Below, in pieces: positions 10,542-64,000 of a stretch of 64,000 nt of DNA. How positions within the stretch are numbered: position 1 is the stretch's first letter; each line of letters opens with the position of its first letter. Source of the DNA: an uncultured Flavobacteriaceae bacterium (GTDB lineage: Bacteria > Bacteroidota > Bacteroidia > Flavobacteriales > Flavobacteriaceae); NCBI GenBank assembly GCA_947488345.1, contig CANKZQ010000001.1, positions 660,518 to 724,517 of the forward strand, given 5' to 3'. A program made the translations under genes and the position numbers. The notes beneath the pieces are model-generated. The model worked only from the letters and a program-made list of their open reading frames with translations. It was not told where the DNA came from and did not search any database.

Positions 10542-11570
10542 TTATTCTTTATGATTCACGGTATAAGCACGCCACTTCTCTAAACAGGCCTGCATATCTT
10601 CAGGAATTTCCGAATCGAATTGCATCATTTTTTTTGTTACAGGATGTTCAAACCCCAATGTTTTGGCATGCAACGCTTGCCTAGGTAACACTTTGAAACA
10701 ATTGTCTACAAATTGTTTGTATTTGGTAAAGGTCGTTCCCTTTAAAATTTTCTCTCCGCCGTAACGTTCGTCATTAAACAAGGTATGTCCGATATGCTTA
10801 AAATGAGCTCTTATTTGATGTGTTCGGCCAGTTTCTAATTTACACTGCACTAGTGTCACATAGCTAAAACGTTCAATGACCTTATAATGGGTAACGGCAT
10901 GTTTCCCAAATTCCCCGTCAGGGAAAACATCCATCTGCAACCTATTTTTAAAACTTCGACCGATATGCCCCGTAATGGTTCCTTCATCATTTTCAATATT
11001 TCCCCAAACTAGGGCCAAATAAAGACGTTCAGTAGTACGATCAAAAAATTGATTCGACAAATGTGTCATCGCGGCTTCGGTCTTCGCCACTACTAATAAA
11101 CCACTGGTGTCTTTATCAATTCTATGCACCAATCCTGGTCGCTCATTAGAATTTTTGGGTAAGTTCTCGATATGATGAATCAATCCATTAACCAAAGTAC
11201 CGCTGTAATTTCCATGTCCAGGATGCACCACCATACCTGCAGGTTTATTCACCACCATCACTGCGTCATCTTCATAAACAATATTGATAGGGATATCTTC
11301 AGCAACCAACAAATTCTCATGAGGAGGATGTGCCAAGACCACACGAACCTCATCGAGTGGTTTTACTTTGTAATTTGACTTTACCACAGCATCATTCACC
11401 AAAACATTTCCAGCTTTTATTGCTTGTTGGATCTTGTTGCGCGTAGCGTTTTCTATGAAATTGAGTAAAAATTTATCTACACGTAATGGTACTTGTCCAT
11501 CACTTGCCGTAAACTTATAATGCTCAAAGAGTTCATCTTGCTCTTCTAAATGGGCAGCGTCATCATTCAT
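10542..11570 (-). CDS. rluD: RluA-family pseudouridine synthase with S4 domain (RluD-like)
   Basis: S4 domain; VNKPAGMVVHP; RPGLVHRIDKDTSG; LETGRTHQIR; RQALHA. Confidence 0.93.
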   Translation of the reverse strand: MNDDAAHLEEQDELFEHYKFTASDGQVPLRVDKFLLNFIENATRNKIQQAIKAGNVLVNDAVVKSNYKVKPLDEVRVVLAHPPHENLLVAEDIPINIVYEDDAVMVVNKPAGMVVHPGHGNYSGTLVNGLIHHIENLPKNSNERPGLVHRIDKDTSGLLVVAKTEAAMTHLSNQFFDRTTERLYLALVWGNIENDEGTITGHIGRSFKNRLQMDVFPDGEFGKHAVTHYKVIERFSYVTLVQCKLETGRTHQIRAHFKHIGHTLFNDERYGGEKILKGTTFTKYKQFVDNCFKVLPRQALHAKTLGFEHPVTKKMMQFDSEIPEDMQACLEKWRAYTVNHKE

Positions 11571-12154
11571 TAATTACTCGAATCAGTATTACTACTTTTC
11601 TTTCCATCTCCCAATACTAGATCGATCGTACTATTTTTAGGAATCGCGGTACCCACTTCTAATTCGGCACCATTGTATCTGAGTTTTCGTACAACATCAC
11701 GACCGATATCAGGAATATAGGTAGATTTTCCTATTTTAAAACCCGTTGACGTTAATTGTGTTACCACTTGTCTTTTCGTTTTTCCTAATACATTCGGAAC
11801 CTTAATTTTTCTATAGCTTGCCGGATTCAAAGTGAGGTAAATTTTTCTACCCTCTTTGACAAAGTCTCCAGCTTCAGGGTTTTGACTTAACACCGATTCT
11901 GGTGGAAACTCAGGATTATAGCTCGCATAAGGCATCACCACGGTATCTAAACTCTTTTCATCTAATGTTTTAACGGCATCTACCAGTGACATCTTTGCTA
12001 AATCTGGCACTTCGATTTTTTGACCATGATTGGTTTTAAAACTTAAAAATCGATTCAACAGAAAAATACCTACCACCAATACCAGTAATATAGTAAGTAT
12101 GGTACGTATAAAAAGTTTACTTTTTAAATAATGTAATAGTTGCATTTTGGTCAT
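11570..12154 (-). CDS. PASTA domain-containing membrane protein
   Basis: N-terminal TM helix; VPDL and VPNVLG PASTA repeats; SQNPEAG..VKEGR.I.L. Confidence 0.88.
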   Translation of the reverse strand: MTKMQLLHYLKSKLFIRTILTILLVLVVGIFLLNRFLSFKTNHGQKIEVPDLAKMSLVDAVKTLDEKSLDTVVMPYASYNPEFPPESVLSQNPEAGDFVKEGRKIYLTLNPASYRKIKVPNVLGKTKRQVVTQLTSTGFKIGKSTYIPDIGRDVVRKLRYNGAELEVGTAIPKNSTIDLVLGDGKKSSNTDSSN

Positions 12155-40647: not shown

Positions 40648-40794
40648 AAATTTAGTTGGTTACTTAAACTTACGAAAATTTATAAGGCTCCTTAATTTTT
40701 TTAGCAATAATTAACATTCTATAAATCTGTACAATGTTTTAATTTGATTGAAATAATTTTCGCAAATTTGTGATCTAATAGAACTGTAACTAAC

Positions 40795-50174: not shown

Positions 50175-50732
50175 ATGAAAGAAACAATAGAAATTACAAC
50201 CGCCATCATGAACGCTAAAAAAGGCGAGGAAGGTGCCTATACCCTATTGTTAAATACATACTGGAAAGATGTCTATCGCTTTCAATACAGCAAAACAGAT
50301 GACGAAGAAGAGGCAGAAGACATTACGATTAAAACCTTTGCTAAAGCGTTTGATAAAATTTCAACGTTCAAAGAAGATTATAAATTCAAAACGTGGCTTA
50401 TCTCTATTTCTAAAAATATTTATATTGACCATCTGCGCAAGCAAAAAACTGAGACAGTTTCCTTAAGCAAAGAAAATGATGCCTATAAGGTTAAAGATGA
50501 CGAACCTACTCCAGTAGATAAACTCATTATAGAACAAAATTTGGCACAATTATTAAGCTACATCAAACAGCTAAAGCCGCACTATCAAGAGATCATCCAT
50601 TTGCGTTTTTTTAAAGAAATGAGCTATAAAGAAATTGCATCTAATTTAGATGAGCCTATGAATAATGTCAAGGTAAAATTGCTCCGCGCCAAGAAACTAC
50701 TCGCAGAAATTATTAAAAAATCAGATTCTTAA
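50175..50732 (+). CDS. ECF RNA polymerase sigma factor
   Basis: Region 2 (AEDITIKTFAKAF...FKTWL...N..ID.LRK) and region 4 (SYKEIA...VKVKLLRAK). Confidence 0.92.
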   Translation: MKETIEITTAIMNAKKGEEGAYTLLLNTYWKDVYRFQYSKTDDEEEAEDITIKTFAKAFDKISTFKEDYKFKTWLISISKNIYIDHLRKQKTETVSLSKENDAYKVKDDEPTPVDKLIIEQNLAQLLSYIKQLKPHYQEIIHLRFFKEMSYKEIASNLDEPMNNVKVKLLRAKKLLAEIIKKSDS

Positions 50733-50765
50733 AAATTTAGTACTTTCACCTCTTTATATGTTTAT

Positions 50766-51983
50766 ATGAAGAAATTACTACAATCTTTAGGCCCCGGACT
50801 TTTATTCGCTGGCGCCGCAATTGGGGTCTCTCATTTAGTGCAGTCAACCAGAGCAGGAGCTGACTTTGGCTTTGGTTTACTTTGGGCACTTTTACTGGTA
50901 AATCTCTTTAAATATCCATTTTTTCAATATGGGCCTAGGTATGCAGCCGCGACGGGTGAAAGTTTAATTGATGGCTATAAAAAATTAGGTAAAGGTATAC
51001 TTATTGCCTATTATGTCTTAACCTTTGCTACCATGTTTACAATTCAGGCCGCTGTGACGATCGTAACTGCCGGTTTAGCTGCAAACCTTTTTGGTATTGC
51101 GCTTAGTCCTACGGTATGGACTATTATTATTACCATTATTTGCCTCTCTATACTAATGATTGGTAAATATAAATTCTTAGATAATTTTATTAAAATCATC
51201 ATCATTACCTTAACATTGAGTACTATTATTGCTGTAGTAATTGCCGTTTTTAATATCGGCACACCTCAGAGTTTTGCACAAACTTTTCCTCAAGGCAGCC
51301 TCGAAATTGCTTTTTTAATTGCTTTTTTAGGATGGATGCCCGCACCACTCGACATTTCAGCTTGGCATTCTCTCTGGGCCTTAGAAAAACAGAAAAATAC
51401 GAAAGATGACTTCAATATGAAAAAAACCATGTTCGATTTTAACTTGGGTTATATTGGCACTGTTTTTTTAGGGGTCTGTTTTATTAGTTTAGGAGCTTTA
51501 GTTATGTTCGGATCTGGAGAACAATTTAGCAGCGCTGCCGGTAAATTTGCTCAGCAGCTCATTCATTTATATACAGAAAACCTGGGTGAGGCTACTTCCA
51601 TATTTGTCGCTATCGCTGCTTTTACAACCATGTTCAGCACAACTTTAACCACTTTAGATGCCTCACCAAGAGCCATGGCACGATCTACCGAACTAATCTT
51701 CGATAAAACATATAAATACAATTATTTAAGTTGGATATTATTATTAGCTGCAGGTACTATTATCATTTTATCTTTTTTCATCTCTAATATGATCACCATG
51801 GTGAAAATTGCGACTATTTTATCATTCTTAACCGCTCCTTTTTATGCTATTGCCAATTTTATGTTGATTTCAAGTAAGCATACTCCTCAACAATGGCGAC
51901 CATCGAAAGCAATGAAAATATTAAGTTATTTGGGGATTATTTTCTTGATCGGATTTAGTATTTGGTATTTAATGAATTTGTAA
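50766..51983 (+). CDS. NRAMP/APC-superfamily transporter
   Basis: LGPGLLFAGAAIGVSHLVQSTRAGA, GWMPAP, FTTMFSTT. Confidence 0.8.
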   Translation: MKKLLQSLGPGLLFAGAAIGVSHLVQSTRAGADFGFGLLWALLLVNLFKYPFFQYGPRYAAATGESLIDGYKKLGKGILIAYYVLTFATMFTIQAAVTIVTAGLAANLFGIALSPTVWTIIITIICLSILMIGKYKFLDNFIKIIIITLTLSTIIAVVIAVFNIGTPQSFAQTFPQGSLEIAFLIAFLGWMPAPLDISAWHSLWALEKQKNTKDDFNMKKTMFDFNLGYIGTVFLGVCFISLGALVMFGSGEQFSSAAGKFAQQLIHLYTENLGEATSIFVAIAAFTTMFSTTLTTLDASPRAMARSTELIFDKTYKYNYLSWILLLAAGTIIILSFFISNMITMVKIATILSFLTAPFYAIANFMLISSKHTPQQWRPSKAMKILSYLGIIFLIGFSIWYLMNL

Positions 51984-52004
51984 CTTTGTATTCTAATTTT
52001 AGTT

Positions 52005-52871
52005 ATGGCAGTAACACCCGAAATAGCACCAGTCAAAAAACCAAAATGGTTACGAGTTAAGCTACCTGTTGGTAAAAAGTATACTGAACTTCGCGGTTTA
52101 GTTGATAAATACAATCTTCATACTATTTGTACAAGCGGAAGTTGCCCGAATATGGGAGAATGCTGGGGAGAAGGTACGGCTACATTTATGATTTTAGGAA
52201 ATATCTGTACACGCTCTTGCGGATTTTGTGGAGTTAAAACCGGTAGACCTGATACTGTAGATTGGGAAGAACCAGAAAAAGTGGCGCGTTCTATTAAAAT
52301 CATGCAGATAAAACATGCCGTGATTACCTCTGTTGATCGGGATGATTTAAAAGATGGAGGCTCTATCATTTGGGCCGAAACCATCAATGCGATTCGAAGA
52401 GCAAATCCAACAACTACCCTCGAAACATTGATTCCAGATTTTCAATTAATTCATAAAAACATAGATAGAATTGTAGCTGTGGCACCTGAGGTTGTTTCTC
52501 ATAATGTTGAAACTGTGCGTCGCTTAACCCGTGAAGTACGTATTCAGGCGAAATATGATCGAAGTTTAGCTGTGTTGAAATATCTAAAAGACAGTGGAAT
52601 CAATCGAACCAAGTCTGGAATTATGCTTGGCTTAGGTGAATTAGAAGAAGAGGTCATTCAAACTATGAAAGACCTAAGAACTGCAAAAGTAGATGTGGTG
52701 ACGATTGGTCAATACTTACAGCCGAGTAAAAAACACCTTCCTGTAAAAGAATTTATTACTCCAGAACAGTTTAAAAAATATGAGACCATTGGACTCGAAA
52801 TGGGCTTCAGACATGTTGAAAGTGGAGCCTTGGTAAGGTCGTCATATAAAGCTCAAAAACACATCCTCTAA
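52005..52871 (+). CDS. lipA: Lipoyl synthase
   Basis: [33 protein letters not shown]. Confidence 0.98.
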
Positions 52872-52953
52872 AGTATTAACACTATTATAACAACTGTTTA
52901 ACCTTTTGTTAACTAGAGGCGTACAATATTACGTCGATATTTGCGTTGTAGTA

Positions 52954-53040
52954 ATGAAACAAGATGACAATTTTGTTTACATTGTATAAATTATTTGAGT
53001 TAGTTAAAAGAAAACGCCTTAGTTGTTAAGGCGTTTTTTT
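52954..53040 (+). ncRNA. Candidate sRNA copy 1 (5' hairpin, AU-rich core, terminator)
   Basis: 30-nt core 29/30 identical to copy 2; own terminator AAAACGCCTTA/TAAGGCGTTTT; GATATTTG -7-like element at 52936. Confidence 0.55.
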
Positions 53041-53068
53041 AGTTTAAAATATACCGTTTTTAAAAGTT

Positions 53069-53084
53069 TGGCACGAGAGTTGCA
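53069..53084 (+). promoter_or_regulatory. sigma54 (RpoN) -24/-12 promoter
   Basis: TGGCAC-GAGAG-TTGCA, perfect TGGCAC-N5-TTGCW. Confidence 0.75.
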
Positions 53085-53093
53085 TTAAATAAA

Positions 53094-53176
53094 TTGAAAC
53101 AAAGTAAAATTTGTTTTCATTGTATGAATTATTTGAGTTAGTTAAAAAAAAGGTCTTCACTTGAAGGCCTTTTTTA
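53094..53176 (+). ncRNA. Candidate sRNA copy 2
   Basis: Begins at the expected sigma54 TSS; shared core 53118-53147; terminator AAAAAGGTCTTC/GAAGGCCTTTTT. Confidence 0.6.
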
Positions 53177-53241
53177 TTTGTAAAACAAAGCTCTTAGAAT
53201 TAAATTAATATCTTTAACTTTCGAAGATTACAATTCAATTC

Positions 53242-54288
53242 ATGTATATGGAGCTCAATCGAGAACTTTTATTTTTCTTTAGTGCGTTAGGAGCTTTTAA
53301 CGGTTTGGTTTTAAGCCTATATTTTCTTTTCTATGTGAAACCGAAACATATTTCGACTAAATTTTTAGGCATGTTTCTTCTTATGCTTAGCATCAGAATT
53401 GGCAAGTCAGTTTTTTTTCATTTTAATCGCGAACTCTCCTTTCATTACTTACAATTAGGACTCACCGCTTGTTTTTTTATCGGACCTTTTTTATTTTTTT
53501 ATATAAAATCGGTGATTCAACCAGATAGTAACATCAAAACTTCTTGGAAATATCATATTGCCCTGTTATTACCCATTGCTTTAGTTGTTGGGTATTTATA
53601 TCCTTTTAAAACCAATATTGAGCTCTGGCGACCCTTTATAATTAAAACAATATACATTCAGTGGTTTATATATATTTTAGCTTCAATCTATGTTGTAGCT
53701 CCTCGCCTAAAAATGGTATTCAAAGGGCATCTAAAAATTACACAACTTGATGTTTGGCTGCTTAGCCTTCTCATAGGGAATCTTATTTTATTATCATCTT
53801 ATTACTTTACCAGTTTTATAAATTATATCTCTGGAGCCCTTGCATTTTCTTTTTTACTATACCTATTAATTGTTTTTTTACTATTTGGAAAAAACAGAAA
53901 TACCATCTTGTTTCATAAAAAAAATAAATACTTCGATAAGAAAATGGACGACGATGAAGCTTCCAATTTAATCGAACAATTAGACGCCATAATGACAAAG
54001 CAAGAATTGTATAAAAACTCTAATTTAAAATCTTCTGATGTTGCTAAAAAGCTACAACTATCTACACATCAATTTTCGCAGTTATTAAATGATAATTTAG
54101 GAAAGAGCTTTCCAAACTTTATTAATGAATATCGCATTAAAGAGGCAAAAAAAATAGTTTTGTCAAACGAACAACTCACCTTAGAGGCTATCGGTTATGA
54201 ATGCGGGTTTAATTCTAAATCCACCTTTTATACAGTCTTTAAAAAAATTGTGGGAACTACACCTGCCAAATTCAAAGAACAATTTTAA
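53242..54288 (+). CDS. AraC-family regulator with N-terminal multi-TM sensor
   Basis: About six hydrophobic helices; LYKNSNLK...VAKKL, FPNFINEYRI.EAKK, IGYECGFNSKSTFY..FKK. Confidence 0.92.
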   Translation: MYMELNRELLFFFSALGAFNGLVLSLYFLFYVKPKHISTKFLGMFLLMLSIRIGKSVFFHFNRELSFHYLQLGLTACFFIGPFLFFYIKSVIQPDSNIKTSWKYHIALLLPIALVVGYLYPFKTNIELWRPFIIKTIYIQWFIYILASIYVVAPRLKMVFKGHLKITQLDVWLLSLLIGNLILLSSYYFTSFINYISGALAFSFLLYLLIVFLLFGKNRNTILFHKKNKYFDKKMDDDEASNLIEQLDAIMTKQELYKNSNLKSSDVAKKLQLSTHQFSQLLNDNLGKSFPNFINEYRIKEAKKIVLSNEQLTLEAIGYECGFNSKSTFYTVFKKIVGTTPAKFKEQF

Positions 54289-63006: not shown

Positions 63007-64000
63007 TTAACTATTTTTTTCGTTTTTCAAATGTTCTTCCAGTGCTAAAATATCAGTCACAAGTACTTGTCTCGCCTTGCTACCTTCAAACGGTCCTACA
63101 ATTCCTGATGCTTCTAATTGATCAATAATTCGTCCAGCTCTGTTATATCCTAATTTTAATTTTCGTTGTAATAAAGAAGCAGATCCCTGCTGTGCATTTA
63201 CAATTACATGAGCAGCTTCTTCAAACAATTTATCCCTGTCGTCAATGTCTATATCAAGACTTGTGCCACTTTCTTCACCAACGTATTCTGGTAGTTGATG
63301 TGCACTGGCATATGCCTTTTGCGATCCTATAAAGTCAGTTATTTTATCAACTTCAGGTGTGTCAACAAATGCACATTGTAAACGTGTTAGCTCGCTCCCA
63401 GTAGAAATTAACATATCACCTTTACCAATGAGTTGATCAGCTCCTTGTGCATCTAAAATTGTTCTAGAATCTATTTTAGAGGTTACTCTAAAAGCGACCC
63501 TTGTCGGGAAGTTCGCCTTGATCAAACCAGTAATCACATTAACCGACGGACGTTGTGTAGCTACAATCAAATGAATTCCAATCGCTCTGGCCAATTGAGC
63601 TAATCGTGCAATTGGAGCTTCGACTTCCTTTCCTGCAGTCATAATCAAATCCGCAAACTCATCAATAACCAATACAATATAGGGCAAAAATTTATGCCCA
63701 TTTTCTGGATTCAGTTTTCTTGCTTTGAATTTTTCATTGTACTCTTTAATATTTCGCACGTAGGCATCTTTGAGTAAATTATAACGATCATCCATTTCAA
63801 TACACAACGAATTCAATGTATTGACAACCTTGGTCGTATCGGTAATAATAGCGTCTTCAGAATCTGGCAGTTTTGCCAAATAGTGACGTTCAATTTTATT
63901 AAACAGAGTCAACTCTACTTTTTTAGGATCAACCAACACAAATTTCACTTCAGCGGGATGTTTCTTATAAAGCAACGAGGTAAGAACTGCATTTAAACCA
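63007..64000 (-). CDS. ftsK: DNA translocase FtsK, C-terminal part (continues past window end)
   Basis: VLVIDEFADL, RAIGIHLIVATQRPS, GSASLLQRKLKLGYNRAGRI gamma domain; frame open to 64000. Confidence 0.97.
   Translation of the reverse strand, partial: GLNAVLTSLLYKKHPAEVKFVLVDPKKVELTLFNKIERHYLAKLPDSEDAIITDTTKVVNTLNSLCIEMDDRYNLLKDAYVRNIKEYNEKFKARKLNPENGHKFLPYIVLVIDEFADLIMTAGKEVEAPIARLAQLARAIGIHLIVATQRPSVNVITGLIKANFPTRVAFRVTSKIDSRTILDAQGADQLIGKGDMLISTGSELTRLQCAFVDTPEVDKITDFIGSQKAYASAHQLPEYVGEESGTSLDIDIDDRDKLFEEAAHVIVNAQQGSASLLQRKLKLGYNRAGRIIDQLEASGIVGPFEGSKARQVLVTDILALEEHLKNEKNS

What the first reader, a model, noticed from the sequence alone, without database searches (positions are those of the whole stretch)
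52936..53176. Tandem paralogous sRNA candidates, one sigma54-driven, complementary to Bacteroidota-type translation-initiation regions
Seen: two ~85-nt units between lipA and the AraC gene. Each has a 5' TGAAACAA/TTGTTT hairpin with a different loop, a shared core CATTGTAT(A/G)AATTATTTGAGTTAGTTAAAA (29/30; 52980 and 53118) and its own intrinsic terminator with an unrelated stem. Copy 2 starts where the perfect TGGCAC-N5-TTGCA promoter (53069) predicts; copy 1 follows a -7-like GATATTTG. No peptide is conserved on either strand. The core's reverse complement, TTTTAACTAACTCAAATAATT(T/C)ATACAATG, resembles an A-rich leader ending in ATG. Established: Bacteroidota initiate translation from A-rich leaders without SD and lack Hfq. 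Inference: sibling trans-acting sRNAs that mask start regions and integrate two sigma-factor inputs. The aminotransferase leader TAACTAAC-ATG (40787) is an in-window 8-mer match, though that could be chance.
Basis: partly seen in the sequence, partly recalled or inferred. Interest (0 to 1): 0.72.

Follow-up and report, generated by a model that had tools for sequence, protein, structure and literature searches.

The report
Tandem small-RNA genes downstream of lipA
Two adjacent ~80-nt genes after the lipoyl synthase gene belong to an undescribed, conserved small-RNA family of marine Flavobacteriaceae, whose ancestral double promoter (sigma-54 plus a second sigma-factor type) appears to have been split between the two copies after duplication; no transcript has yet been detected.

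Summary
Two ~80-nt units (about 52956-53040 and 53095-53175, + strand) each have a 5' hairpin, a shared 30-nt core (29/30 identical) and their own terminator. An exact TGGCAC-N5-TTGCA lies upstream of unit 2.

Homologues lie 115-293 nt downstream of lipA, on the same strand, in 47 distinct loci from Aureibaculum species and uncultured Flavobacteriaceae. Diverged copies occur in Lutibacter and Urechidicola. Both helices covary, no ORF is conserved, and the downstream gene varies. This fits an independent non-coding RNA gene, not a leader.

The new result concerns the promoters. Thirty-one of 33 single-copy loci carry sigma-54 (TGGCAY-N5-TTG) superimposed on an ECF-like ACAAT-N16-CGTT motif. In all 13 two-copy loci the upstream unit has lost the sigma-54 GG. 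Twelve of those upstream units keep ACAAT..CGTT. All 13 downstream units keep only sigma-54.

No Rfam family reaches its gathering score. The best sub-threshold match is Bacteroides FopS (21-26 bits against 56), which is not enough for membership. Masking of translation start regions is inferred by analogy only. No conserved target and no RNA-seq evidence could be found. Verdict: a new member of a known kind.

The parts
52005..52871 (+). lipA (lipoyl synthase). This is the conserved upstream neighbour of the RNA in every locus. No terminator-like hairpin separates it from unit 1, so lipA transcripts probably end at the unit 1 terminator.
   Evidence: Pfam Radical_SAM and LIAS_N. lipA ends 115-293 nt upstream on the same strand in all genome loci and in all 28 metagenome loci with at least 250 nt of upstream sequence.
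52897..52913 (+). Direct repeat TTTAAC-N6-TTAAC upstream of the unit 1 promoter. It is a candidate regulator-binding site; its function is unknown.
   Evidence: Present in 29/33 single-copy units and 13/13 upstream units, and in 0/13 downstream units.
52923..52947 (+). Unit 1 promoter region, ACAAT-N16-CGTT (ECF/'SM6'-like -35/-10). It overlaps GATATTTG (52936-52943, a sigma-A -7-like box). The homologous sigma-54 -24 GG has been lost (TACGTC in place of TGGCAY).
   Evidence: F. psychrophilum SM6 promoters have TSS mapped 9 nt after CGTT (PMC9723704).
52956..53040 (+). Unit 1 small RNA (predicted, about 85 nt). It comprises the 5' hairpin (52956-52978), the single-stranded core (52980-53009, A at core position 9) and the intrinsic terminator (53015-53040).
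   Evidence: Fold z-score -5.5. Covariance model 93 bits. Covariation of both helices. The 5' end is predicted from promoter spacing only.
53069..53084 (+). Sigma-54 promoter of unit 2, TGGCAC-N5-TTGCA (-24 GG at 53070-53071, -12 GC at 53082-53083). It predicts a start at about 53094-53096.
   Evidence: Exact match. TGGCAY-N5-TTG is kept in 13/13 downstream units and 31/33 single-copy units, with a variable spacer.
53095..53175 (+). Unit 2 small RNA (predicted, about 80 nt). It comprises the 5' hairpin (53096-53117), the core (53118-53147, G at core position 9) and the terminator (53152-53175).
   Evidence: Fold z-score -3.7. Covariance model 92 bits. The A/G difference between the units is kept in six genomes.
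50175..51983 (+). ECF sigma factor gene (50175-50732) and Nramp-family transporter gene (50766-51983). Together with lipA they form the conserved cluster that precedes the RNA.
   Evidence: Pfam. Synteny by tblastn in the family loci.
53242..54288 (+). AraC-family regulator with a membrane N-terminus. It is the downstream neighbour here but not a constant partner of the RNA.
   Evidence: Pfam HTH_18 and HTH_AraC. Downstream genes differ and are often convergent in other loci.

Best explanation
These are two tandem paralogues of a conserved, non-coding, roughly 80-nt small RNA gene that sits directly downstream of lipA in a clade of marine Flavobacteriaceae.

Each RNA has a 5' hairpin, a long single-stranded U-rich core and a Rho-independent terminator.

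In single-copy genomes the gene is driven by a composite promoter. A sigma-54 -24/-12 element (TGGCAY-N5-TTGC) is embedded in an ECF-type ACAAT-N16-CGTT element, and both predict about the same start site.

After tandem duplication the two promoter types were partitioned. The upstream copy (unit 1) lost the sigma-54 GG and kept the second promoter. The downstream copy (unit 2) kept only sigma-54.

The RNA, its structure, the promoter motifs and their partition are shown by comparative sequence analysis.

The following steps are inferred:
- The single-stranded core, especially UUUGUUUUCAU and GAGUUAGUUAA, pairs with A-rich, SD-less translation-initiation regions and blocks initiation. This is the mechanism shown for Bacteroides FopS/GibS.
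- An RRM-type RNA-binding protein probably takes part.
- The RNA connects envelope-stress, protein-quality (sigma-54) and nutrient or envelope (ECF) signals to its targets.
For: - Core duplication: 2 matches against 0 expected.
- Protein-anchored syntenic loci, found without using the RNA sequence, keep both units with identical cores at 84, 78 and 68% AraC identity.
- Forty-seven distinct loci were found, all next to lipA.
- Covariance-model scores are 76-98 bits for members. The Lutibacter copy scores 51 bits (E 3e-6) and the Urechidicola copy 29 bits (E 0.03).
- Terminator: 8/8 pairs show compensatory changes and 98% of cells are paired. 5' hairpin: 3/8 pairs show compensatory changes and 93% are paired. 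None of 500 shuffles reaches the observed covariation.
- No ORF is conserved.
- Downstream genes vary and are often convergent.
- Promoter partition: 31/33 single-copy loci carry both motifs, 13/13 downstream units carry sigma-54 only, and 12/13 upstream units carry ACAAT..CGTT only.
- F. psychrophilum has TSS-mapped sigma-54 (SM4) and ECF-type (SM6) promoters with the same motifs, some of them driving sRNAs (PMC9723704).
- FopS precedent: a long conserved single-stranded region blocks susC translation and is bound by RbpB (PMC11697453).
Against: - There is no transcript evidence. Public RNA runs gave nothing usable.
- No conserved target was found. TIRs in the window pair only slightly better than intragenic sequence. 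The best candidate, an RluD-like gene at -18.7 kcal/mol, is not conserved in relatives.
- UUUGUUUU is sequestered in the 3' arm of the 5' hairpin.
- CAU is replaced by UAA in one upstream unit (L077).
- The exact-core members were found using the core itself as the search pattern, so their invariance is partly due to ascertainment.
- The two-copy loci may all descend from one duplication, so the partition could be a single event.
- The -12 element is TTGA or TTGT rather than TTGC in several downstream units.
- No rpoN, enhancer-binding protein or RRM gene lies within the 64-kb window.
Confidence: 0.6

Rival explanations
1. The units are distant Flavobacteriia homologues of the Bacteroides FopS/GibS sRNA family. 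They would share its R1-type seed and act on susC-like or TonB-dependent transporter mRNAs.
For: RF04319 FopS is the highest-scoring Rfam match for both window units and for L014, matched over the full model. The shared string is UUUUCAU-GUAU...GUUA-U-AAA plus a terminator. FopS also has a long (41-nt) conserved single-stranded motif.
Against: Scores are 21-26 bits against a gathering score of 56, similar to unrelated terminator-containing families, and FopS is not the top match in L047. A local-alignment shuffle test gives p = 0.02-0.12. The architecture differs (extra 5' hairpin), as do the promoter type and the copy number (1-2 tandem copies at one locus, against 12-14 dispersed).
Confidence: 0.15
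2. The element is only the 3' UTR and terminator of lipA, or a cis-acting stability or processing element for lipA mRNA. It would have no trans-acting role.
For: It is always 115-293 nt downstream of lipA on the same strand. There is no separate lipA terminator.
Against: Conserved promoter motifs lie between lipA and the RNA. A second copy with its own sigma-54 promoter follows the first terminator. The conservation is too long for a terminator alone. A more divergent sibling lies 5 kb from lipA in L067.
Confidence: 0.1
3. Unit 2 is a transcription-attenuating leader (riboswitch-like or protein-controlled) of the downstream AraC gene.
For: A promoter, structured RNA and terminator lie 66 nt upstream of the AraC start on the same strand.
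Against: Most family loci have no AraC gene downstream. Downstream genes differ and are often on the opposite strand. Five two-copy loci lack AraC. No alternative antiterminator fold is evident.
Confidence: 0.05
4. The RNA works mainly as a protein-binding or decoy RNA, for example titrating an RRM-type RNA-binding protein, and not by base-pairing.
For: About 30 nt of single-stranded sequence is conserved, which is longer than a usual seed. No conserved target was found. RbpB binds the long conserved FopS motif.
Against: No protein partner could be examined here. The hairpin, single-stranded region and terminator layout is typical of base-pairing sRNAs.
Confidence: 0.1

Closest known systems
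FopS / GibS sRNAs of Bacteroides thetaiotaomicron (Rfam RF04319; PMC11697453)
   Same: Same phylum, which lacks both Hfq and SD-dependent initiation. About 65-85 nt long. [quoted passage not shown] Paralogous copies exist. FopS is the best, though sub-threshold, Rfam match.
   Different: The score is far below the gathering threshold. This RNA has an extra 5' hairpin. Its promoters are sigma-54 or ECF-like instead of canonical sigma-ABfr. It occurs as 1-2 tandem copies at a fixed locus after lipA, not 12-14 dispersed copies. Targets and RbpB binding are unknown here.
Rfp11 of Flavobacterium psychrophilum (PMC9723704)
   Same: A Flavobacteriaceae sRNA transcribed from a TSS-mapped ECF-type SM6 promoter (ACAAT-N17-CGTTATA). 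Its 5' end is UGAGUUAGUUAAG, identical to the GAGUUAGUUAA module of the core. It also contains UUUGUUUUGCAU.
   Different: Only a local 17/19 match (shuffle p about 0.03). The modules are in a different order. It lies between gpsA and an alcohol dehydrogenase gene, not after lipA. It has no sigma-54 element. Homology is not established.
GlmY / GlmZ of Enterobacteriaceae (PMC3045617)
   Same: Two homologous sRNAs whose promoters are sigma-54, overlapping sigma-54 plus a second sigma factor starting at the same site, or the second sigma factor only, depending on species and copy.
   Different: Unrelated sequence and phylum. The second sigma factor there is sigma-70. GlmY acts as a decoy for RapZ. 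The two genes are not tandem.
Qrr1-5 of Vibrio
   Same: Sigma-54-dependent sibling sRNAs with a near-invariant stretch of about 30 nt that pairs at translation-initiation regions (from my own knowledge, not checked here).
   Different: Hfq-dependent, dispersed loci, activated by LuxO, unrelated sequence.
ECF sigma-E-dependent sRNAs MicA, RybB and MicL of E. coli
   Same: Small RNAs driven by an alternative (ECF) sigma factor. MicL is a precedent for a promoter inside or behind a coding gene that shares the gene's terminator (from my own knowledge).
   Different: Different phylum and sequence, Hfq-dependent, with outer-membrane protein targets demonstrated.

Membership tests
Rfam RF04319 BTncRNA_FopS | Covariance-model score at or above the curated gathering score (56 bits) | tested here: not met
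   24.5 and 23.6 bits for the window units, 25.7 for L014 and 21.3 for L047. The gathering-threshold scan of the whole window gave no hit.
Rfam RF04319 BTncRNA_FopS | Single-stranded seed at the very 5' end, followed directly by the terminator, with no other helix | tested here: not met
   A covarying 5' hairpin precedes the core.
Rfam RF04319 BTncRNA_FopS | Multicopy family dispersed in the genome (12-14 copies) with canonical sigma-ABfr promoters | tested here: not met
   One locus per genome with 1-2 tandem copies in the species-representative genome scan. The promoters are sigma-54 or ECF-like. Caveat: the scan needed an exact 19-nt core, and one diverged sibling exists in L067.
Rfam RF04319 BTncRNA_FopS | Pairs with the start-codon region of susC-like mRNAs and is bound by RbpB | not testable with these tools
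   Only 64 kb of this genome is held, and no RNA or protein interaction data exist.
Sigma-54-dependent promoter | -24 GG and -12 GC elements at fixed spacing (TGGCAC-N5-TTGCW), placed about 12 nt upstream of the transcript start | tested here: met
   TGGCACGAGAGTTGCA at 53069-53084. The predicted start at 53094-53096 coincides with the first base of the 5' hairpin.
Sigma-54-dependent promoter | -24 and -12 elements conserved in orthologues while the spacer varies | tested here: met
   31/33 single-copy units and 13/13 downstream units keep TGGCAY-N5-TTG with differing spacers. The -12 element is TTGC, TTGA or TTGT.
Sigma-54-dependent promoter | Genome encodes RpoN and an enhancer-binding activator with an upstream binding site | not testable with these tools
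   No GAFTGA or RpoN-box protein in the 64-kb window. F. psychrophilum has one sigma-54 and three activators (PMC9723704). No upstream activating sequence was identified.
ECF-type ('SM6'-like) promoter of Flavobacteriaceae | -35 element (G/A)(T/C)AA(C/T), a 16-17 nt spacer, and a -10 CGT box about 9 nt upstream of the start | tested here: met
   ACAAT-N16-CGTT at 52923-52947. Kept in 31/33 single-copy and 12/13 upstream units, and absent from 13/13 downstream units. Motif and TSS distance are taken from PMC9723704. Activity was not tested.
Intrinsic (Rho-independent) terminator | G+C-rich hairpin directly followed by a U-tract, with the stem kept by compensatory changes | tested here: met
   8/8 pairs have changes on both sides and 98% of cells are paired. 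Runs of T6-T8 follow.
Rfp11 (F. psychrophilum sRNA) | Sequence homology over the RNA, and shared synteny | tested here: inconclusive
   Local 17/19 match AATTA--TGAGTTAGTTAA with shuffle p 0.03-0.04. Different neighbours, gpsA and an alcohol dehydrogenase gene.
Small protein-coding gene | An ORF conserved in frame across members | tested here: not met
   Several members have no ORF of 8 or more codons on either strand, and no peptide is shared by all.

The most novel reading that the evidence does not exclude
An ancestral small-RNA gene with two superimposed promoters for different alternative sigma factors (sigma-54 and an ECF-type factor, possibly the one encoded two genes upstream) was tandemly duplicated. 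The overlapping promoters were then resolved by complementary degeneration, so each sibling now reports one signal. A fixed A-to-G change in the seed begins target divergence. The family would be the Flavobacteriia counterpart of the FopS/GibS-type anti-start-region RNAs, working with an RRM protein instead of Hfq.
Probability: 0.35. Interest if true: 0.75.

Novelty: new member of a known kind. Interest (0 to 1): 0.55.

Why it matters
Riboregulation in Flavobacteriia, major degraders of marine algal polysaccharides, is almost unexplored. Only one transcriptome map (F. psychrophilum) lists candidate sRNAs, and no target mechanism has been shown.

This family gives a well-defined, easily testable sRNA. 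It has a fixed genomic address after lipA, cultured carriers (Aureibaculum species) and two predicted alternative-sigma inputs.

The single-copy composite promoter and the two-copy partitioned promoters form a natural experiment. They show how overlapping promoters can be resolved by gene duplication (subfunctionalisation of regulatory input), in parallel with GlmY/GlmZ in enterobacteria.

If the core masks SD-less initiation regions, it would extend the FopS/GibS principle from gut Bacteroides to another class of the phylum.

Tried and rejected
- **Rfam.** No family reaches its gathering score in the window. The FopS resemblance is too weak for membership.
- **Sigma-54-driven sRNAs of F. psychrophilum.** Rfp1, Rfp36 and Rfp45 are unrelated in sequence. 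Rfp11 shares only an 11-nt module and the promoter type.
- **In-window target search.**
  - The best TIR, of an RluD-like gene at 11563-11588 (- strand, -18.7 kcal/mol), is not conserved in four relatives (-12.5, -14.1, -7.9 and -10.1 kcal/mol). I rejected it as chance.
  - The aminotransferase 8-mer at 40787 is at chance level.
  - The TIRs of the ECF sigma, Nramp and lipA genes show no consistent complementarity. Nramp pairs well only in some Aureibaculum species.
  - Complement-of-core 9-mers are not concentrated at start codons in 434 kb of family loci.
- **RNA evidence.** Three run searches and one read-laying gave only metagenomic DNA contigs and one 151-nt low-depth contig. That contig spans the inter-unit promoter and is uninformative.
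- **Second sigma-54-like site.** The site at 63253 (- strand) lies inside an FtsK-like coding region and is chance.
- **Number of duplication events.** A neighbour-joining tree of lipA DNA is too poorly resolved to count them.
- **Trans factors.** No rpoN, enhancer-binding protein or RRM gene lies in the window.
- **Leader-of-AraC and small-protein readings.** Both rejected.

Full report
**1. Observation**

Reading 52600-53500 confirms two units between a radical-SAM/LIAS_N gene (lipA, 52005-52871) and an HTH_18/AraC gene (53242-54288), both identified by Pfam.

- The 30-mer CATTGTAT(A/G)AATTATTTGAGTTAGTTAAAA occurs at 52980 and 53118, with none expected by chance.
- Each unit folds as a 5' hairpin, an unpaired core and a terminator hairpin with a U-tract. 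The z-scores are -5.5 and -3.7.
- TGGCACGAGAGTTGCA at 53069-53084 is the only exact sigma-54 consensus in the window. Its -12 GC lies 12-13 nt before the G that opens the unit 2 hairpin.
- A pairwise alignment shows that homology between the units extends upstream into the promoter region: CGATATTTGCGTT against CGAGAGTTGCATT.

**2. Conservation found without using the RNA as bait**

Homologues of the AraC protein are from Flavobacteriaceae: Psychroserpens, Winogradskyella, Lacinutrix, Tenacibaculum and Flagellimonas.

Three contigs, with AraC identity of 84, 78 and 68%, keep the order ECF sigma, Nramp, lipA, [two units], AraC. In all three, both cores are identical to the window, including the A (unit 1) against G (unit 2) difference. 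The hairpin loops, the terminator stems and the flanks have diverged, with compensatory changes.

**3. Family and address**

- A scan of one genome per species for CATTGTATNAATTATTTGAG gave 40 loci. About 21 are true members: Aureibaculum marinum, A. flavum, A. luteum and Aureibaculum sp., Flavobacteriaceae bacterium F08102, and several MAGs. The rest are chance matches inside coding regions of unrelated taxa.
- Each genome has one locus with one or two tandem copies, always just downstream of lipA on the same strand, in the ECF sigma, Nramp, lipA cluster.
- A metagenome scan with a 25-specified-base pattern added 33 loci. All 28 with at least 250 nt of upstream sequence have lipA ending 115-293 nt upstream.
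- Loci anchored on the lipA protein from more distant genera show diverged versions in Lutibacter (L047) and Urechidicola (L048). Both have the same layout and a sigma-54 motif. Muriicola (L049) and L050 have none.
- A covariance model built from 27 members scores members at 76-98 bits. It scores L047 at 51 bits (E 3e-6) and L048 at 29 bits (E 0.03). It finds no further copy in the window.
- Caveat: the exact-core members were retrieved with the core as the pattern, so their invariance is partly due to ascertainment. Two upstream units found only by the model have variant cores (L059, L077).

**4. An RNA, not a protein and not a leader**

- On the model-based alignment the terminator has compensatory changes in 8/8 pairs, with 98% of cells paired. 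The 5' hairpin has them in 3/8 pairs, with 93% paired. None of 500 shuffles reaches the observed covariation, and sliding the partners halves the pairing. The alignment is fitted to the structure, which favours it. Even so, the unrelated yet perfectly paired stems are plain in the raw sequences.
- No ORF is shared by all members on either strand.
- The downstream gene differs between loci: an M16-like peptidase, dnaK, a hydrolase, a UbiA-like protein, purine nucleoside phosphorylase, AhpC or AraC. It is often convergent. This excludes a 5' leader.
- No terminator separates lipA from unit 1. lipA transcripts therefore probably end at the unit 1 terminator, and the RNA resembles a 3'-UTR-type sRNA with its own promoter.

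**5. Promoters: the main new result**

Among 47 distinct loci (details):

| Class | Loci or units | Motifs present |
|---|---|---|
| Single-copy | 31 of 33 | TGGCAY-N5-TTG(C/T) and (A/G)CAAT-N16-CGTT, superimposed as ACAATTTTGGCAT-N5-TTGCCGTTATA |
| Two-copy, downstream unit | 13 of 13 | Sigma-54 motif only |
| Two-copy, upstream unit | 12 of 13 | ACAAT..CGTT only, with the -24 GG lost |
| Two-copy, upstream unit | 1 of 13 | Neither motif |

- The two single-copy exceptions are a truncated contig (L003) and L080. L080 has an upstream-type unit directly followed by AraC, which is a secondary loss of unit 2.
- The former -24 position in upstream units carries at least eight different sequences.
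- In F. psychrophilum, TSS mapping defined a sigma-54 motif (SM4) and an ECF-type motif (SM6). SM4 drives chaperone, envelope and gliding genes and three sRNAs. SM6 has -35 GTAAC/ACAAC/ACAAT and a -10 CGT box, responds to low nutrients and drives the sRNA Rfp11. Its TSS lies 9 nt after CGTT (PMC9723704).
- Applying that spacing puts the unit 1 start at about 52956, the position homologous to the sigma-54-predicted unit 2 start.
All 13 upstream units read nAnnTTTG at the old -12 site and 2/13 read TAnnTTTG. Only 10/32 single-copy loci have TTTG there.
- A direct repeat TTTAAC-N6-TTAAC accompanies the ACAAT-type promoters only.
- The two-copy loci may descend from one duplication. The lipA tree is unresolved, so the counts are not independent events.
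- Precedent: GlmY and GlmZ have sigma-54, overlapping sigma-54/sigma-70, or sigma-70-only promoters depending on copy and species (PMC3045617).

**6. Comparison with known RNAs**

- No Rfam family reaches its gathering score. In permissive mode the top match for both units and for L014 is RF04319 FopS, over the full model, at 23.6-25.7 bits against a gathering score of 56. In L047 it scores 21.3 bits and is not the top match. A shuffle test on the non-terminator part gives p = 0.02-0.12. Membership is not met.
- FopS and GibS are the only mechanistically studied base-pairing sRNAs of the phylum. A conserved single-stranded 5' region pairs next to the start codon of susC mRNAs and blocks initiation. 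The RRM protein RbpB binds a 41-nt conserved motif and counteracts this (PMC11697453). This is the basis for the inferred mechanism here.
- Rfp11 shares GAGUUAGUUAA at its mapped 5' end, and the promoter type. Otherwise the similarity is only local (p about 0.03).
- Across all members, including the diverged ones, the most conserved strings are UUUG.UU.CAU and UUAGUU. A diverged sibling in L067 keeps only AGUUAGUUAAAAG. This points to that module as the likeliest seed.

**7. Function tests that failed or were inconclusive**

- TIRs in the window pair slightly better with the core than intragenic windows do (Mann-Whitney p = 0.004). That is expected for A-rich leaders.
- The best candidate, an RluD-like gene at -18.7 kcal/mol, is not conserved in four relatives.
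- Neighbour-gene TIRs give no consistent signal.
- Complement-of-core 9-mers are not concentrated at start codons in 434 kb of family loci.
- Public RNA runs gave no usable transcript evidence.
- The window has no rpoN, enhancer-binding protein or RRM gene.
- Literature searches found no description of this RNA.

**8. Verdict**

- Genuine sibling sRNA genes with two different sigma inputs is well supported comparatively. The second input is more likely ECF-type than sigma-A.
- The RNA is linked to lipA, not to AraC.
- The proposed masking of start regions is a reasonable but untested analogy.

This is a new family of a known kind. Its notable feature is the duplication-associated partition of an overlapping promoter.

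Noticed in passing
L067:1296-1391 (- strand): A more diverged sibling lies 5 kb from the lipA-linked copy (46 bits with model R1). It has a sigma-A-like TACTTTTG box, then ACAAUUUAUGAUUUAUUUAAGUUAGUUAAAAGAAAA and a terminator. Only the 3' module of the core is kept, which suggests that dispersed relatives exist and would be missed by the exact-core scans.
   Followed up: partly
L077:11433-11531 (+ strand): A weak third match (36 bits, E 9e-4) lies after an aquaporin-like coding region, as GTATAAATTTTTTGAGTTTATTAAAG plus a terminator. It may be a decayed copy or chance.
   Followed up: no
window 52897-52913, and homologous positions in family loci: A direct repeat TTTAAC-N6-TTAAC lies about 10 nt upstream of ACAAT. 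It is present in 29/33 single-copy and 13/13 upstream units and in 0/13 downstream units. It is a candidate regulator-binding site of unknown function.
   Followed up: partly
window 50175-52871; L001, L002, L004, L014, L036, L047, L048 and others: The gene order glycosyltransferase, ECF sigma, Nramp-family transporter, lipA is conserved across genera. No anti-sigma gene is evident next to the ECF sigma. This sigma factor is an obvious candidate driver of the ACAAT..CGTT promoter.
   Followed up: no
L080:1-420: An upstream-type unit (sigma-54 GG lost, ACAAT..CGTT kept) is followed directly by the AraC gene with no second unit. This appears to be secondary loss of the sigma-54-driven copy.
   Followed up: partly
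L036 (Nramp start region); compare window 50740-50790: In some Aureibaculum species the Nramp start region reads UUUUAUACAAUGAAAAG. This is complementary to the UUUUCAUUGUAUAAA of the RNA (-18.8 kcal/mol). In the window's clade the complementarity is weak (-10.8 kcal/mol).
   Followed up: partly
window 53185-53235: The block TCTTAGAATTAAATTAATATCTTTAACTTTC between unit 2 and the AraC start is conserved in relatives. It is also seen, as TTGATATCTTTAAC, in L080. It is probably the AraC gene's own promoter or operator.
   Followed up: no
window 63253-63268 (- strand): The only other near-match to the sigma-54 consensus (TGGCACAAGTCTTGAT) lies inside an FtsK-like coding region and is a chance match.
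   Followed up: yes
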